Source: Brevundimonas sp. (lineage in GTDB: Bacteria; Pseudomonadota; Alphaproteobacteria; Caulobacterales; Caulobacteraceae). From it: 33,551 nt of DNA. This document shows positions 1-32,639 of this stretch, one piece after another. Within the stretch, counting starts at the first letter, position 1, and every line of letters begins with the position of its first letter. The stretch lies in contig NZ_DASWNO010000175.1 of the NCBI RefSeq assembly GCF_036399195.1, positions 1 through 33,551 on the forward strand, written 5' to 3'. Both the position numbers and the translations under genes were made by a program. The notes under the pieces were generated by a model, which had not been told where the DNA came from, searched no databases, and saw only the letters and a program-made list of their open reading frames with translations.

Positions 1-888
1 ATCGACGCCCTCGCCGAACTGTATCCGCACATCCCGGTCTGCATGCACCAGGACCACGGCAACGGCCCCGCCACCTGCGCCACCGCCATCCAGTACGGCT
101 TCACCTCCGTGATGATGGACGGCTCGCTGATGGAGGACGGCAAGACGCCGGCCGACTACGAGTACAACGTCGCCGTGACCAAGAAGGTCGTCGAGATGGC
201 CCACGCCTGCGGCGTCTCCGTCGAGGGCGAGCTCGGCGTGCTCGGCTCGCTGGAGACCGGCATGGGCGAGAAGGAGGACGGCCACGGCTTCGAGGGCAAG
301 CTGGACCACTCGGCCCTGCTGACCGACCCGGATCAGGCCGTCGACTTCGTGCGCGAGACCCAGGTCGACGCCCTCGCCATCGCCATGGGCACCAGCCACG
401 GCGCCTATAAATTCAGCCGCCAGCCCGATGGCGACGTGCTGGCCATGAACGTCATCGAGGAAATCCACCGCCGCCTGCCCGACACCCATCTGGTCATGCA
501 CGGCTCGTCCTCGGTGCCGCAGGACCTGCAGGACATCATCAACCAGTACGGCGGCCAGATGCCCCAGACCTGGGGCGTGCCGGTCGAGGAAATCCAGCGC
601 GGCATCAAGCACGGCGTGCGCAAGATCAACATCGACACCGACAACCGCATGGCCATGACCGGCGCGATCCGCAAAATCTTGTCCGAGAAGCCCGGCGAGT
701 TCGACCCGCGCGCCTATCTGAAGCCGGCCAAGGAGGCGATGCGCAAACTCTGCCAGGAGCGCTTCGTCCAGTTCGGCTGCGAGGGCATGGCCTCGAAGAT
801 CAAGCCGCTGTCCACCGCCCAGATGGCCAAGCGCTACGCCTCGGGCGAGCTGAACCCGCAGACGGGCGGGATGTCGGCGGCGGCCTGA
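1..888 (+). CDS. fba: Fructose-bisphosphate aldolase class II (5' truncated by window edge)
   Basis: Frame open from base 1 ([20 protein letters not shown]). Motifs [51 protein letters not shown]. Confidence 0.96.
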
Positions 889-918
889 GTGCATCCCCGA
901 CCCGGGCTGCTATCCCTC

Positions 919-1049
919 CTCGTCCTTCCGGGGCCGCGAAGCGGAACCCGGAATCCAGGAGATCGGGCTGCGACGCCTGAAGCATCTGTTTGCCTTACCC
1001 TGGATTCCGGGTTCTGCCCCGGCTTCGCCGGACCAGCCCCGGAAGGACG
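919..1049. repeat. CGTC-ended palindromic intergenic repeat (CIR/REP-like), copy 1
   Basis: Outer IR CGTCCTTCCGGGG (921-933) / CCCCGGAAGGACG (1037-1049). Inner perfect 16-bp IR GAACCCGGAATCCAGG (944-959) / CCTGGATTCCGGGTTC (999-1014). Lies between convergent genes. Confidence 0.92.
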
Positions 1050-10916: not shown

Positions 10917-13900
10917 TCAGGTGGCCAAAGCCGCGGTGGCCTCGGCGCCCCATCCAAATCCATCGCCCCACTGAGCCACGGCCACCACCACGGCCGGCCC
11001 GATCTCGAGGGGAAAGTCCGCGGTCACGTCCTCCGAAGCGTAGATCGCGCCCGGTCCGTCCACCTCCGCCGAGCGCACCTCGACGCCGTCCTCCAGCACG
11101 CGCACCCGGAACTTCAGAGCGGTCAGGGGCGCATCTTCCCCATCCCACCGGTCGCCGCCGACGCGCAGGCGCGGAATCCAGCCGATATCAAACCCGCCAT
11201 CGTCCCGCGCCTCCACCCTCAGATGCGCCGGCGACCACGGCCGGTCATGCACCCCGGTCAGCTCGAACGTCGTCTCGCTGACACCGGCCCCGCCCGCCGG
11301 CCCGCCCGCCGGTCCCGCCCGCCAGACCAGCGGCAGACCCCGTTCGGCGCCGGAGCAATCCGCTCGCGGCGGCCTCGCGTCCAGCAGCACCACCAAGGCG
11401 CCCACCCCCGCGCCCGTCCGCATCGCCGCCTCCGTCCCCTGCTGGCCCCGCAGCAGACCCGACAGCCGCCAGACACCCTCCCCGATCAGCTCCGCTGTCC
11501 GGAACTGCGCCAGCTCCCAGCCCTGCTCCGTCTCGATGGCGACCGCGTTCGCGCCAGCCAGCACCGCCGCCGTGCCGCGGCTCTCCGGCGCCCGCCCCTC
11601 GACCCGCACCAGCAGCCCGCCCGCCTCGTCCCAGCGATGCCGCGCACCAGCCACCACCGGCTCGACCAGCACGCCGACCGTCGCCGGCTGAGCCGCCACC
11701 CTACGAAGGGTCATCGACAGAGCATCGGGCCCGGCGAAGACGCTCATGCTCCGCCACGGCTCCGCGGCCACCACCGCCAGGGGCCGACTGTCTTCCTCGC
11801 CGCCTACCAGCGGCGGCAGCTCGATCATGCGGAACAGCGGCGCTCCAACGATGGCGGCCGCCTCTCCGGCCCTGGGCGCGGAGTCGTCCTCTCCCGGCTC
11901 GATCGACGACACCCGCTCCAGCACCGCCGTGGGCGTCTCCTCCAGATCGACTCGGGCAACGCGCCAGCTGCCGCTCCGCCCCTCCACCGTCACGCCGTCG
12001 CCGGGCTCCAGCCTCAGCGCCTCCAGCGGCCCCAGCGACGCCGTCAGTCGCTCCGTCAGCCCCGTCTCCAGCGCCCGCGCCGCCGCCGTGCGCGCCAGCG
12101 CCATGGAACAGACCGCCGGGAGGTCCAGATCGACTCCGCCGCCCTCGCCCGCCGATCGCGCGACCGCGGACCCTGTCTGATAATCCGTGTCGCCGTCGAT
12201 GAAGCGCACCCGGGCCGCGCCGGGCGCAGGCTCCAGCGCCCGCTCCGCCCGCAGCCGCTCGCCTTCGTCAGGCAGCGCCAACCGATCCAGCGAAAGCTCC
12301 AGCGCGGCCGGCCCCTCCGCCAGCACCGCCACCTTCCCCTGCCGCTCCGCCGCGATCAGCCCCAGCCCCGCCAGCAGCGGCTCCAACGCGTCCCGCGTCC
12401 GCATGGGCCGATCGACGACATAGCCCTGCACCTCCGCCCGGCCCGCCTCGACGCTGAACTCGCTCTCCTCCAGCCCGCCCCGGCGCAGCAAGGCCGCGAT
12501 CAGGTCGCGCGTGTCTCCGCCCAGCCGCCCGTTCAGCCAGTGCCCGGTGCGCCACGCGCCGGCGTCCGCCCACACGTCCGACCGGCCTGGAAACGCCGGC
12601 CATGGCCGCGCGTCCCAGCACCAGGCGTCGGCCCCGTCCAGCATTGGCCCGCCATAGACCCCCGACACGGGATTGTTCTGGCCCTGCGCGAAATGCTCCA
12701 GCAGCGCCTCGAGCGCCCGCCTCTGCATCCGATCGTCGCGCGTCCCTTCCGACGCGGGCGGCAGGGCGCTCTCCGCGCTCTTCGGGTCCTGAAACAGGTT
12801 CGGCGCATTGCCGCCCCGGTCCACGGCCGCGCAGCCGAACTCGGTCAGCCGGATCGGCTTCATCTCCGGAACCCAGGCCGTCGGCGTGGCGCTGCGCGCG
12901 CCGCCCGGCCGGTCGTGATGGGCGTGGCTCCACCAGCCCTTCAGATCCTTCGGCCGGAACAGCCAGTGCTCGCCATTCGCCGTGTCGGCGATGACCGTCC
13001 GCACCTGCGCCGCCCGGTCCGCATCCGAGGCGTAGAACCAGTCAAACCCCTCGCCCCCCGCCACCTGCGCCGCCAGATACGCCGGATCGTCCGGTCCCGC
13101 GAACGCCGCCGCATCCACGCCGCCGCTCCCGCCGCGCCAGTCGCCCAGCGGCGGATACCAGTCGATGCCGACGTGATCGATGCTCGGATCCGCCCATAGC
13201 GGATCGAGATGAAAGATCGCGTCCGCCCCGTCGTGCCGCCCGAAATACTCCGACCAGTCCGCCGCGTAGCTGATCGCCACGTGCGGTCCGACGACTGCCC
13301 GACACTCCTCCGCCAGCGTCCGCAATGCCTCCACAGCCGGAAAGCCGCCCGCTCCGTCCCGCGTCCAGGTCAGCCCGCGCATCTCGGAGCCGATCAGCAG
13401 CCCGTCCGCCCCGGTCTCCTGCGCCAGCGCCGCATAGTGCAGCGCCAGCCGCCTCAAACCCCATCCGTCGGCAGAGCCGAACGCCGCCGCCACGTCCCCC
13501 GCGGCGTCGACGCCATCGCGGCCCTTCACCCGACCCCGCCACGGATAAGCCGCCTGCTCCGCCCCGCCATACGGATCAGCCAGCCCATTCCCCGGTGCGA
13601 TGTCCATGAACACGAACGGATAGAGCGTGACCTCCAGCCCCCGCGCCTTCAGCTCCGCCACCGCCTGACGGACGCTGTCGTCCGAGGGCGTGCCCCCATA
13701 GGCCGGGCCGCCTCCGGACTGGCTGATCAGGTGCGCCTCCGCCCGCCCCAGTCCCGCGACCGACCAGCTCAGCGGCTCCGTCGCCTTGTCCCGCCGCTCC
13801 ACGCCCGGACGGACGGTGCAGTGCCCCGCCCTGAGGTCCGAGCCGAACCAGCCGATCACGAGGCTGACACGCTTCAGCGCCGGCGCCTGCGCGATCAACT

Positions 13901-19391: not shown

Positions 19392-19417
19392 GGGCCACCT
19401 CAATTGTCTGAAAGAAA

Positions 19418-19500
19418 GTGGCTGGTGGTTGGTGACTGGTGATTGGCCGCGCATCGCGCCCCACCACCGCTCCAGCCACCAGTCACCGACCACCAATCAC
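19418..19500. repeat. Heptamer-unit inverted repeat, copy 1
   Basis: GTGGCTG GTGGTTG GTGACTG GTGATTG (19418-19445) ... CAGCCAC CAGTCAC CGACCAC CAATCAC (19473-19500). Confidence 0.9.
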
Positions 19501-22266: not shown

Positions 22267-22367
22267 GTGATTGGTGGCTGGTGGCTGGTGGCTGCTCGCC
22301 ATCACATTGGCCCGCCGGCTCGCTCTGACCACTAGCCACTGGCCACCAGTCACCAGCCACCAACCAC
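22267..22367. repeat. Heptamer-unit inverted repeat, copy 2
   Basis: GTGATTG (GTGGCTG)x3 (22267-22294) ... TGACCAC TAGCCAC TGGCCAC CAGTCAC CAGCCAC CAACCAC (22326-22367). Confidence 0.9.
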
Positions 22368-22371
22368 CCCT

Positions 22372-29558: not shown

Positions 29559-30551
29559 TTGCGCCGCGCCCACAGCCTCCCGATCGTCGCCCTCGCCGTC
29601 ACGGCGGGGACCTTCATGGCCGGCGCTGCGTCGGCCCAGACGAGCGGCCTGCGCCAGCTCTCATGGCCCGGACGGGCGGCGGCGCCCGCCGCATCGGCCC
29701 CGTCGAACCCGGCGCGTGGCGATCTCCGTCGGCCCAATCTGGTCATCCCTCACGGCGGCTTCGCGGCTGTGCAGCCGGCCGCGGACCGCACGCCGCCGCC
29801 GTCGCCCGCACCGCGCCGCACGCTAACCCCAGCCTCCGCCTGGCTCCGCCCGGCTGCGCCTCCTCAGCCCGCTGCGCCCCAGCCCGAAGCGCCGCAGCCC
29901 GAAGCGCCCGCGCCCATGGCGGCGGTTCGCCCCGCCCCGGCTCGCGCCTATGCTCCGCCTGAGCCCCGCATGGAGCCGCGTCCTCAGCCCCGCTCGGCGC
30001 CCCAACCACGCCAGCCCGCCCCGCCGCCGGCGCCTGAATACCTCCCCGATCAGGGTGGACGCGGACAACCCGTCCCGGCCGAGGCCGTCGCGCCCCCGGT
30101 TCCGGTTCCGGTCGCCGCGCCACGCGTCGACGCGACGGCTTCTACGATCGATCCGGCCGATCCCATGGCGCCTCGCCGGGACGCCCCGATCTTCCGCATG
30201 CAGCAGCGGAACCTCGCCCAGCCCGCGCCTGCCGCCGCCCCCGCCGAGGGCGAGGGCCAGCCCACCGCCTCCGAGGAGCCTCGTCCCCAACGAGTCGCGG
30301 AGGTCTCAAACACCGGCGAGCGGCCGCCCCAGCAAGGAGCCCGCTACTACTCGGTCCACCGCCAGAACGGCCGCACGCCTGACGATCTGACGATGCCGGA
30401 TCCGACCTATGTGGACTCGCTCGCGATCACCATGACCCAGACGCCGGCCTCGCAGGACCTGGCCCAGCCGGATCAGGGCCCCACTCTGATCCGCGACAAC
30501 AACGGCCGCGTGCGTCAGGCGCCGGCGCCCTCGGACGGGGACCACCAGTGA
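29559..30551 (+). CDS. Exported Pro/Ala-rich hypothetical protein
   Basis: Signal peptide ending ASA-Q, then LSWPGR, low-complexity body and ARYYSVHR motif. TTG start with GGAG RBS; GTGA coupling to the next gene. Confidence 0.72.
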   Translation: MRRAHSLPIVALAVTAGTFMAGAASAQTSGLRQLSWPGRAAAPAASAPSNPARGDLRRPNLVIPHGGFAAVQPAADRTPPPSPAPRRTLTPASAWLRPAAPPQPAAPQPEAPQPEAPAPMAAVRPAPARAYAPPEPRMEPRPQPRSAPQPRQPAPPPAPEYLPDQGGRGQPVPAEAVAPPVPVPVAAPRVDATASTIDPADPMAPRRDAPIFRMQQRNLAQPAPAAAPAEGEGQPTASEEPRPQRVAEVSNTGERPPQQGARYYSVHRQNGRTPDDLTMPDPTYVDSLAITMTQTPASQDLAQPDQGPTLIRDNNGRVRQAPAPSDGDHQ

Positions 30552-31657
30552 GTCAGGTCGACGTCGAGGCGGCGCCGACGATCTCCCGCCTCCCCGAACT
30601 GATCACCCTCGCGGAGGAGGGCTCCAGCGAGAAGCGCCGCGCCCTGCTGCGCGAACTCACCGAGCACTTCTTCGGCGCGGCGGCCCGCACGGCCACCGAG
30701 GACGACCTCTACGGCTCCGTGCTGGCGCGCCTCGCCGCGGACATGGAGACGGCTGTCCGCGCGGAACTGTCCGCCCGCTTCGCCACGGCCGGGGACGCGC
30801 CCCACACACTGATCCGCCGGCTGGCGAACGACGAGGCCGCCGTGGCGGGCGCCGTGCTCGCGGCCTCCCCGGTCCTCACCGACGAGGACCTGCTGAACGT
30901 CGTCCGCAAGCATGGACAGGATCACCTCCGCGCCGTGTCGGCCCGCCCGACCGTCTCGGAGGCCGTGTCGGACGTCATCGTCCAGCGCGGCGACGACGAG
31001 ACGCTCGGGACCCTGCTCCGCAACGACGGCGCCCGTCTGTCGCGCGAGGCCTCCGAAACCGCCGTCCGCCGCGCCCAGGCCAATCCGGCCCTGCACGAAG
31101 CGACGGTCGAGCGGGCCAGCCTGCCGCCCGATCTTCTCAACGAGATGTATTTCGTCGTCGAGGCCCGGCTCCGGGCCAGCATTCTCGAACAGAACGCCCG
31201 TCTCGACCCCGCGCTGCTGGAAAGCGCCCTCGCCGCCGGCCGCGCCCGCGTCGCCACCGACGACGGCGCCCTCCCGGCCGATTACGCCGAGTGCAAGGCC
31301 TACGTCGAAGAACTCAGGGCCGCCGGCCAATTGTCGCCCCAGATGCTGGCCCGCTTCCTGCGCTCCGGCGGCCGCACGTCCTTCCTGATCGCCTTGGCCC
31401 AGCTCTCGGACATCGATTTCCACACGGCGCGTCAGATCGTCGACCGTCGCGAGCTCGACGCCCTCGCCGTCGTCTGCAAATCGGCGGATCTGGATCGCGC
31501 CCTGTTCCTGACCTACGCCGTGGTCCTGCTGAACGACGACGGCGACGCCATGGCCAAGGCGCACTCCTACGCGCGGATGTACGCCGAGCTCAGCCGCGAC
31601 GCAGCTCTCCGGACGGTGCGCTTCTGGCGCATGCGCCGCGGCGCCCAGGCGGCTTGA
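30548..31657 (+). CDS. DUF2336 domain-containing protein
   Basis: L..LA.E.SSEKRR.LLR.LT..F, R.ELS.R.A....AP..L...LA.DE..VA..VL..SPVLTDEDL, HLRAV..R..VSE.VSDVIV.RGD. Confidence 0.87.
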   Translation: MSQVDVEAAPTISRLPELITLAEEGSSEKRRALLRELTEHFFGAAARTATEDDLYGSVLARLAADMETAVRAELSARFATAGDAPHTLIRRLANDEAAVAGAVLAASPVLTDEDLLNVVRKHGQDHLRAVSARPTVSEAVSDVIVQRGDDETLGTLLRNDGARLSREASETAVRRAQANPALHEATVERASLPPDLLNEMYFVVEARLRASILEQNARLDPALLESALAAGRARVATDDGALPADYAECKAYVEELRAAGQLSPQMLARFLRSGGRTSFLIALAQLSDIDFHTARQIVDRRELDALAVVCKSADLDRALFLTYAVVLLNDDGDAMAKAHSYARMYAELSRDAALRTVRFWRMRRGAQAA

Positions 31658-31954
31658 TCACCAACCTTCGGCAAGGTCCAACCATTGCGGGTTCCTTGCT
31701 TCGATCAGGTCCGTCTTCCATCGACGCCGCCACTTCTTCAGCGTCTTCTCGCGGATGATCGCCTCGATGATCGAGCCGTGCTGCTCGTACCAGACGAGGG
31801 TCTTGCAGCTGTACCTGCTGGCGAAACCGCCGCCGCGCGCGGCTTGGTGTTGCTGGACTCGCGACATGAGATCAGCCGTGACGCCGATGTAGATGGTCCC
31901 ATTCCGGGCGCTGGCCATGATGTAAACGGCGATGATCCGATCCGCGTCGCGCAT
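31658..31954 (-). CDS. Stand-alone GIY-YIG nuclease family protein
   Basis: VYIMAS.RNGTIYIGVT.DL..RV.QH, F..RY....LVWYE, AI.REK.LKKW.R.WK..LIE..NP.W.DL. Catalytic Tyr/Arg/His/Glu/Asn appear intact. Confidence 0.92.
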   Translation of the reverse strand: MRDADRIIAVYIMASARNGTIYIGVTADLMSRVQQHQAARGGGFASRYSCKTLVWYEQHGSIIEAIIREKTLKKWRRRWKTDLIEARNPQWLDLAEGW

Positions 31955-32002
31955 GCGATGATCGCATCATGGTTGTCGCCAACGCACAACCTCTTATGTT
32001 TA

Positions 32003-32131
32003 TCGTCTTTCCGGGGCGGCGTAGCCGAACCCGGAATCCAGGAGACCGGACACGGTCAGCAACGCTGCTCCAGGCGACCCGGTCTAGACTCCTGGGTTCC
32101 GGGTTCCGCTTCGCGGCCCCGGAAGGACGAG
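32003..32131. repeat. CGTC-ended palindromic repeat, copy 2
   Basis: TCGTCTTTCCGGGG (32003-16) / CCCCGGAAGGACGA (32117-30), inner GAACCCGGAATCCAGGAG / CTCCTGGGTTCCGGGTTC. The rc of 32091-32131 matches 919-959 at 40/41. Confidence 0.93.
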
Positions 32132-32150
32132 AGTTGGTGAAGCACACAGC

Positions 32151-32182
32151 AAAACGCCCGCCTTTGTTGCTGAAGGCGGGCG
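32151..32182 (-). terminator. Intrinsic terminator of mucR
   Basis: 10-bp stem CGCCCGCCTT/AAGGCGGGCG followed by TTTT on the minus strand. Confidence 0.8.
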
Positions 32183-32201: not shown

Positions 32202-32639
32202 CTACTTCTTGGCGCGAACGGCGCCGCCGGCGCGGGCCGGCTTGCGGCCGCCCTGTCCGAGGCCCATCGACTTGGCCAGTTCTGAGCGCGCCTTGGCGTA
32301 GTTCGGTGCGACCATCGGATAATCCTTGGGCAGACCCCACTTCGCCCGGTATTCCTCGGGGCTCATATTGTACTTGGTCCGCAGGTGGCGCTTCAGCGAC
32401 TTGAACTTGCGACCGTCTTCCAGACAGATGAGGAAGTCGGGGGTGATCGACTTGCGGACCGGCACCGCCGGGTCCTTGACCTCGGGTTCCGGTTCGACCG
32501 CGCCGGTGGAGACCTGGGTCAGCGCGGCGTGAATGCTGGAGATCAGGCCCGGTACTTCGACCGCCTGAACGTTGTTGTTGCCCACATACGCCGACACGAT
32601 GTCCGCGGTCATCTCGAGTAGTTGCGCGTTGTCTTCCAA
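32202..32639 (-). CDS. mucR: MucR/Ros family transcriptional regulator
   Basis: [59 protein letters not shown]...RS.LAK.MGLG. Start taken at TTG ([10 protein letters not shown]). Confidence 0.95.

What the first reader, a model, noticed from the sequence alone, without database searches (positions are those of the whole stretch)
31658..32131. Stand-alone GIY-YIG nuclease next to a CGTC-ended palindrome that also occurs alone 31 kb away: candidate nuclease-mobilised repeat system
Seen: a 98-aa GIY-YIG gene with intact catalytic residues is squeezed in with its stop abutting the DUF2336 stop. About 50 bp upstream of its start sits a 128-bp nested palindrome, and a gene-less sister copy lies at 919-1049 (one arm 40/41 identical, central spacers unrelated). 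A second palindrome, ATGCGAT-G-ATCGCAT (31953-67), overlaps the start codon. Established: REP/REPIN repeats are mobilised by adjacent RAYT HUH transposases, and GIY-YIG domains drive homing endonucleases and Penelope elements. Inference: this is an analogous autonomous/non-autonomous pair using a minimal GIY-YIG enzyme. I know of no mechanistic description of such a system.
Basis: partly seen in the sequence, partly recalled or inferred. Interest (0 to 1): 0.82.

Follow-up and report, generated by a model that had tools for sequence, protein, structure and literature searches.

The report
Ssn nuclease beside its hairpin repeat
A tiny DNA-cutting-enzyme gene sits next to one of about 32 copies of a hairpin repeat, at a site that most relatives have empty; the pair belongs to the Ssn nuclease and hairpin system published in 2025, so it is a new example of a known kind, and the idea that the enzyme spreads the repeats remains likely but untested.

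Summary
The 98-aa gene (31658-31954, minus strand) is an Ssn-family nuclease (Chenal 2025, PMC11893778). It is 57% identical over 86 aa to a 94-aa NTS-flanked Neisseria-genus protein, with the tested Y/Y/E residues aligned. The upstream palindrome is an inverted dimer of CGTC-tagged hairpins. The 'sister' at 919-1049 is just one of 32 dimers in the genome. The ATG-overlapping palindrome is chance.

New here:
- The cassette is present at this site in 3 of 29 close genomes.
- A sister clade carries the same repeat at another locus.
- Four paralogues in this genome each sit by a different repeat variant.
- Repeat type tracks nuclease clade.
- Distant copies of this type occur in 14 of 14 genomes with this nuclease clade, against 15 of 136 without.

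Against: a second repeat type shows only a weak link, there is no target duplication, and the published SRM pattern misses these long-loop arms. Mobilisation by the nuclease stays inferred. This scan found the pairing at least eight times before in other genomes.

The parts
31658..31954 (-). Ssn-family single-domain GIY-YIG nuclease gene, 98 aa (Y11, Y22, R32, H36, E69, N88)
32003..32131 (.). Inverted dimer of CGTC-tagged hairpin arms ('type A'), tags facing outward, variable centre; REPIN/CIR-like unit
32004..32042 (+). Inner arm: CGTC tag, 7-bp stem with nested 4-bp hairpin, CCAG tail; by analogy to SsnA a cut would fall a few nt 5' of the tag, between dimer and gene (inferred)
   Evidence: PMC11893778
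32091..32129 (-). Outer arm, same anatomy on the opposite strand
919..1049 (.). Gene-less type A dimer behind the class II fructose-bisphosphate aldolase gene; absent from the same site in G080 and G086
30548..31657 (+). DUF2336 (SpbR-like, below the NCBIfam cut-off) gene, left border of the insertion site
32150..32182 (.). Hairpin kept in the empty alleles of relatives, likely the terminator shared by the convergent genes (not called by the scan tool); right border of the insertion site
32202..32621 (-). mucR/ros regulator gene, right neighbour
31953..31967 (.). 7-bp palindrome over the start codon; chance, not part of the system

Best explanation
This is an Ssn-family nuclease gene beside an inverted pair of CGTC-tagged hairpins, present at a site most relatives have empty, and the enzyme likely cuts single-stranded DNA next to this hairpin type and likely thereby helps the repeat family spread. 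Shown here: family membership by sequence, the repeat family, the empty sites, and repeat type matching nuclease clade. Taken from the published homologues: the enzyme binds the hairpin only as ssDNA and hydrolyses a few bases 5' of the CGTC tag. Inferred: the two tags face outward on opposite strands, so cuts would fall just outside both ends of the dimer. The freed single strand would be re-inserted by host repair or recombination, not by transposase chemistry, which fits the lack of a target duplication. The gene would move only rarely, together with its repeats, and then be inherited vertically, as RAYT genes are.
For: 57% identity over 86 aa, pairwise E 3e-35, to a 94-aa Neisseria-genus protein with Y6/Y17/E64 and 16 NTS copies in its 3.3-kb locus. 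The gene is at the DUF2336-mucR site in 3 of 29 close genomes and in 0 of 14 syntenic relatives (3 of them overlap). Eleven sister proteins with type A arms sit at a different site behind a SpoU-family methylase gene, where this genome has no nuclease gene. The three paralogues lie between dnaN/recF-like, sufB/sufC-like and rsmE/acyl-CoA dehydrogenase genes, each with its own arm variant. Tree of 113 proteins: 16 changes of repeat type against a shuffled mean of 71.6 (0 of 200), with types B, C and E spanning about 12, 6 and 20 flank clusters. Type A arms away from the gene: 14 of 14 genomes with the clade against 15 of 136 without; 3/3 against 2/40 among close hosts and 11/11 against 12/95 among distant hosts.
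Against: No cleavage or movement was observed here. The published SRM pattern matches none of this window's arms and 0 of 14 type A loci, so recognition of this long-loop variant is extrapolated. The gene has repeats upstream only. Of the 10 genomes with type A arms but no listed type A nuclease that I searched fully, 9 have none (for example G096 with 25 arms and G032 with 10) and G141 has a frameshifted one. For type E the link is weak: 65 of 109 genomes without the E clade carry E arms, and the excess drops to p 0.007 after removing two gene-side copies and vanishes after removing four. The match between tree and repeat type can come from physical linkage alone. Kin are not independent, so the p values overstate. 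The only in vivo role shown for a homologue is restriction of transforming DNA (PMC11893778).
Confidence: 0.6

Rival explanations
1. The enzyme cuts beside the hairpin but acts only as a host filter on incoming or recombining single-stranded DNA, as SsnA does in Neisseria transformation. The repeats spread by another route and the gene merely travels with them.
For: This is the only in vivo function shown (PMC11893778, Results read). The gene is intact at one site in three species at 74% identity. Repeats persist in genomes lacking the matching clade.
Against: It does not by itself explain why distant type A copies are concentrated in genomes with the type A nuclease (14/14 against 15/136), nor four repeat variants each beside its own paralogue.
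Confidence: 0.27
2. The dimer is an ordinary MITE moved by an IS transposase, and the nuclease gene is cargo captured between or beside MITE ends.
For: Some homologues sit between two inverted arms (for example L040 and C178). The same spacer takes up unrelated MITE-like repeats in relatives. An earlier scan note reports such carriage elsewhere (e1-9921070, not checked).
Against: No target-site duplication: only 4 of 32 dimers show a 4-nt direct repeat, at varying offsets. Di Nocera 2013 found CGTC repeats unlinked to transposase genes (passages). Homologues bind and cut the hairpin themselves.
Confidence: 0.1
3. Chance adjacency of a common repeat and a common small nuclease gene.
For: Both are common: 116 of 151 genus genomes carry a homologue, and 7% of random 660-nt windows hold a tag-stem motif.
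Against: 111 of 113 homologues have a motif within 330 nt (motifs drawn from these flanks). Repeat type follows clade. The association is published across bacteria.
Confidence: 0.02

Closest known systems
Ssn nucleases with NTS/SRM hairpin repeats (SsnA of Neisseria meningitidis, CDD cd10448; Chenal et al., Nat Commun 2025, PMC11893778)
   Same: Single-domain GIY-YIG protein of about 95 aa, 57% identical to an NTS-flanked 94-aa Neisseria-genus protein with the tested residues aligned; CGTC-tagged oriented hairpin beside the gene and dispersed through the genome; the paper already raises the IS200/REP analogy.
   Different: The arm has a 14-nt or longer loop with a nested hairpin and usually C or T after CGTC, so the published SRM pattern misses it; repeat on the 5' side only; four paralogue-repeat pairs in one genome; empty sites shown here.
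CGTC-tagged REP families (Di Nocera et al. 2013, PMC3733652; passages read)
   Same: CGTC tag, short stem, CCA tail, mostly inverted dimers with variable spacers, common in Alphaproteobacteria, no dedicated transposase.
   Different: The loop is 14 nt or more and structured, against 4-5 nt; the stem is 7 bp with an unpaired first position.
RAYT/REPIN systems (GTAG REPs with HUH tyrosine transposase; search listings and established knowledge)
   Same: Low-copy, mostly vertically inherited enzyme gene beside its own repeat type; inverted-dimer units dispersed between genes; several enzyme-repeat pairs per genome.
   Different: The enzyme is a hydrolytic GIY-YIG nuclease with no HUH domain, so no covalent strand-transfer step is expected.
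CIR repeats of Caulobacter (Chen and Shapiro 2003; seen only through the review PMC2229807, passages)
   Same: Intergenic repeats of about 110-135 nt with two arms, enriched in GANTC (36 sites in 32 dimers, 8.8 per kb against 1.3 per kb genome-wide).
   Different: Not compared by sequence; in the review the CIR arms fold separately and no enzyme is linked.

Membership tests
Ssn (cd10448) | Small single-domain GIY-YIG protein (150 aa or less) | tested here: met
   98 aa, the only Pfam hit is GIY-YIG 9-80
Ssn (cd10448) | BLAST E < 1e-10 over at least 75% to SsnA | tested here: met
   57% over 86 of 94 aa, pairwise E 3e-35, to L269. L269 is a stand-in from an unnamed Neisseria-genus genome that matches the paper's length, residue numbers and NTS flanks; it is not the strain 8013 record itself.
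Ssn (cd10448) | Residues required for cleavage (SsnA Y6, Y17, E64) | tested here: met
   Y11, Y22, E69 align without gaps
Ssn (cd10448) | Top CDD hit cd10448 | not testable with these tools
   No CDD library; NCBIfam gave no model above cut-off
Ssn (cd10448) | Sequence-specific ssDNA cleavage beside the hairpin | not testable with these tools
   Needs an assay
SRM/NTS repeat | Matches the published degenerate SRM pattern | tested here: not met
   None of 55 genome hits lies on this contig; 0 of 14 type A loci and 20 of 113 loci overall match. The repeat is filed as SRM-like, not as a pattern-defined SRM.
SRM/NTS repeat | Oriented hairpin with CGTC 5' tag and 3' tail, beside the ssn gene and dispersed | tested here: met
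SRM/NTS repeat | Repeat on both sides of the gene (42% of homologues in the paper; not obligatory) | tested here: not met
   Upstream only here and in G080 and G154; both sides in 65 of 113 homologues
CGTC REP families 1-4 | CGTC tag and CCA tail | tested here: met
CGTC REP families 1-4 | Stem 8-9 bp, loop 4-5 nt | tested here: not met
   7-bp stem, 14-nt structured loop
RAYT/REPIN | HUH tyrosine transposase | tested here: not met
   GIY-YIG only
RAYT/REPIN | Repeat abundance depends on the cognate enzyme gene (works-like criterion) | tested here: inconclusive
   Strong for type A, weak for type E; no host tree correction
CIR | Sequence identity to CIR1-4 | not tested
   Sequences not available to me; only the GANTC enrichment was measured
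Classical MITE | Target-site duplication | tested here: not met
   4 of 32 dimers with a 4-nt repeat at varying offsets, none longer

The most novel reading that the evidence does not exclude
Ssn paralogues are the missing drivers of CGTC-type repeats. Each paralogue amplifies its own hairpin family in trans by cutting single-stranded DNA outside both ends of the inverted dimer, giving a RAYT/REPIN-equivalent that runs on a hydrolytic nuclease and host repair. This genome carries four orthogonal pairs, and the G-poor 11 bases outside every tag would be the footprint of the insertion step.
Probability: 0.35. Interest if true: 0.7.

Novelty: new member of a known kind. Interest (0 to 1): 0.3.

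Why it matters
The pairing and its biochemistry are published, so the locus itself is not a discovery. It adds comparative support for the open question of whether Ssn enzymes spread their repeats: empty sites, clade-specific repeat types and genome-level co-occurrence for one type. It also offers a compact test set of four enzyme-hairpin pairs from one non-pathogenic genome, including long-loop hairpins that the published search pattern misses. If orthogonal, these would be additional site-specific ssDNA cutters.

Tried and rejected
Rfam gave only sub-threshold matches (a microRNA model on the palindrome at 47.9 bits against a cut-off of 268): rejected. The PDB search found only the distant UPF0213 protein 1zg2, E 0.035; no Ssn structure. 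A structure prediction was submitted but had not finished after four collections, so no fold is reported. The promoter scan found nothing. Three named Neisseria genomes held no Ssn homologue; a genus-wide search found one in 20 of 61 genomes. Left and right flanks of a dimer are no more complementary than shuffled pairs. No RNA holder was listed. Contigs of four metagenomes laid on this locus gave two joints skipping 488-489 nt with 18-23 other letters between, read as empty alleles of related organisms and not excisions. On a second contig with three dimers, the listed joints showed no clean removal of a whole dimer (52 further joints not shown; contigs drop rare variants). The fba comparison with G080 is too diverged to fix insertion borders. 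The careful tree did not finish; the quick tree has 49 of 110 forks open. A Pfam scan of the small gene after the SpoU methylase gave nothing for the frame I chose, so it is left unnamed. The palindrome over the start codon was rejected as chance.

Full report
1. Observation. The minus-strand ORF 31658-31954 encodes 98 aa with one Pfam domain, GIY-YIG (E 5.6e-14), between a DUF2336 gene and a mucR/ros gene. Its stop abuts the DUF2336 stop. The palindrome 32003-32131 begins 48 nt upstream of the ATG and folds far better than shuffles (z about -8). The copy at 919-1049 shares one arm at 40/41. The small palindrome over the ATG exists, but it is one of 4 (spacer of 1 or less) or 15 (spacer of 3 or less) such palindromes in the window and is lost in both orthologues at the same site. 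The host is probably a Brevundimonas-type Caulobacterales. This is inferred from a 74%-identical homologue labelled Brevundimonas sp..

2. The repeat. Each arm reads CGTC, a 7-bp stem around a nested 4-bp hairpin, then CCAG. Two arms form an inverted dimer with the tags outward and a variable centre. The 91%-complete assembly holds 32 such dimers of 94-142 nt and 41 exact arms, against 0 in three Markov simulations. There is no target duplication. The 11 nt outside each tag are G-poor: 14% G against 39% further out for type A, and 7% against 41% and 36% for two other types. GANTC is enriched about sevenfold. The fba-site copy is missing in G080 and G086, the 2 of 5 relatives whose junction I could display.

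3. The protein is an Ssn. The first literature search returned Chenal et al. 2025 (PMC11893778). I read parts 1-5 of 11 (abstract to early methods), further passages, supplementary file 12, and a term search of 12 of 14 supplements; figures are not held. The paper shows that the 94-aa SsnA binds the CGTC-tagged hairpin only as ssDNA, cuts a few nt upstream, needs Y6, Y17 and E64, and lowers transformation by repeat-bearing DNA. It also shows that 71% of homologues lie near such motifs. It notes the IS-like architecture and the IS200/REP analogy as a hypothesis, and its supplement lists ssnA homologues in Brevundimonas and Caulobacter rows. A search of 61 Neisseria-genus genomes gave matches in 20. 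L269 encodes a 94-aa protein with Y6, Y17 and E64 and has 16 NTS copies in 3.3 kb. The window protein is 57% identical to it over 86 aa without gaps. The published SRM pattern, however, matches none of the window's arms and only 20 of 113 homologue flanks in this genus, because of long loops and tag variants.

4. Four pairs in one genome. Three paralogues (49-51% identical) each sit beside a different arm variant. Two variants differ only in loop and tail. The paralogues lie between dnaN- and recF-like, sufB- and sufC-like, and rsmE- and acyl-CoA-dehydrogenase-like genes (gene names inferred from the Pfam domains). One lies between two inverted arms.

5. Relatives. 116 of 151 genus genomes carry a homologue. 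At the DUF2336-mucR site, 3 of 29 genomes (this one, G080, G154; the 30 best DUF2336 matches less one unpublished genome) carry gene plus upstream dimer. The other 26 have a 63-194-nt spacer without it. In one search, 14 syntenic relatives also lacked it (3 overlap). The three filled genomes form one branch (support 96) at 74% identity, so this is likely one old insertion inherited vertically. I took flanks for the 110 best of about 290 matches and added the 3 paralogues. 111 of 113 have a tag-stem motif within 330 nt, against 359 of 5000 random windows (the motifs came from these flanks, so this is partly circular). On a quick tree (98 columns, many open forks), repeat type needs 16 changes against a shuffled mean of 71.6. 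Eleven type A proteins sit at a second locus behind a SpoU-family methylase gene, where this genome has an unrelated palindrome and no nuclease. Types B, C and E span about 12, 6 and 20 flank clusters. So gene and repeat type have moved together between loci, but linkage alone can produce this pattern.

6. Action in trans. Type A arms occur in 29 of 151 genomes. After removing gene-side copies and the unpublished genome, 14 of 14 genomes with an intact type A nuclease have distant copies (median 5.5), against 15 of 136 without. The split holds among close hosts (3/3 against 2/40) and distant hosts (11/11, counting one frameshifted gene, against 12/95). Against this, 9 of 10 fully searched exceptions have no type A gene (G096 has 25 arms) and the tenth has a broken one. 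Type E shows only a weak link: 65 of 109 genomes without the clade carry arms, and significance depends on how many gene-side copies are removed. Kin are not independent, and no host tree was built.

7. Mechanism. Shown: membership, repeat family, insertion polymorphism and co-variation. From homologues: ssDNA-specific binding and a cut 5' of the tag. Inferred: outward-facing tags put one cut outside each end of the dimer on opposite strands, and host repair or recombination re-inserts the unit without a duplication. The gene moves rarely with its repeats and is then retained. I put the family at about 0.95, cleavage beside its own arm at about 0.8, and the whole explanation including a role in spread at 0.6. 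The main rival is a pure ssDNA filter with passive linkage (0.27).

8. Comparison and novelty. It is a member of the Ssn family by sequence. The repeat is SRM-like and CGTC-REP-like but fails the published pattern and loop size. The system resembles RAYT/REPIN in organisation but is not one. Di Nocera 2013 (PMC3733652; passages) described CGTC repeats as lacking a dedicated transposase. CIR repeats were seen only through a review (PMC2229807; passages). A 2026 preprint (10.64898/2026.09.22.753630; passages) uses SsnA loci only as a benchmark. Five searches showed no paper demonstrating Ssn-driven repeat movement; subscription journals are not covered. The scan's own notes list eight earlier Ssn-hairpin findings in other genomes and none in this genome; they are unchecked and were seen after I had identified the family. 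Verdict: real, a new member of a known kind, interest 0.3.

Noticed in passing
G000 genome-wide, flanks of type A, B and C dimers: The 11 bases just outside each CGTC/GCTC tag are strongly G-poor (7-14% G against 36-41% further out), on both ends and in three repeat types; target preference or a trace of the insertion step.
   Followed up: partly
G000:C264, C39, C178 (L279, L281, L280): Three more Ssn paralogues, each with its own hairpin variant, between dnaN/recF-like, sufB/sufC-like and rsmE/acyl-CoA dehydrogenase genes.
   Followed up: partly
window 19417-19500 and 22267-22368: Another palindromic family built of short GGTGG-type units (47 motif hits genome-wide); it also fills the DUF2336-mucR spacer in several relatives.
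   Followed up: no
G000:C70 about 2540-2670; L005, L008, L010: A third long palindrome family with C-run/G-run ends, at this genome's SpoU-methylase site and in the DUF2336-mucR spacer of some relatives; these spacers look like shared landing sites for unrelated repeats.
   Followed up: no
G000:C140:1-1016: Second fba contig, 95% identical to window 1-1016, with 98 identical bases of the 919 repeat; likely a co-assembled strain (assembly contamination 4.2%).
   Followed up: partly
L320/L323 (G141:C31:28583-29072): Frameshifted type A Ssn gene between type A repeats in a genome with 13 arms.
   Followed up: partly
110 genus loci plus 3 own paralogues: The published SRM pattern finds only 20 of 113 Ssn flanks in this genus, so published repeat counts for Caulobacterales are probably underestimates.
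   Followed up: partly
L013 (G013) DUF2336-mucR spacer: A 525-nt spacer of lower G+C with no match to the nuclease; an unrelated insertion at the same site.
   Followed up: no
L344 about 12193-12302: Metagenome contigs differ from the assembly at six positions clustered around the left end of a type A dimer; strain variation or assembly artefact.
   Followed up: no
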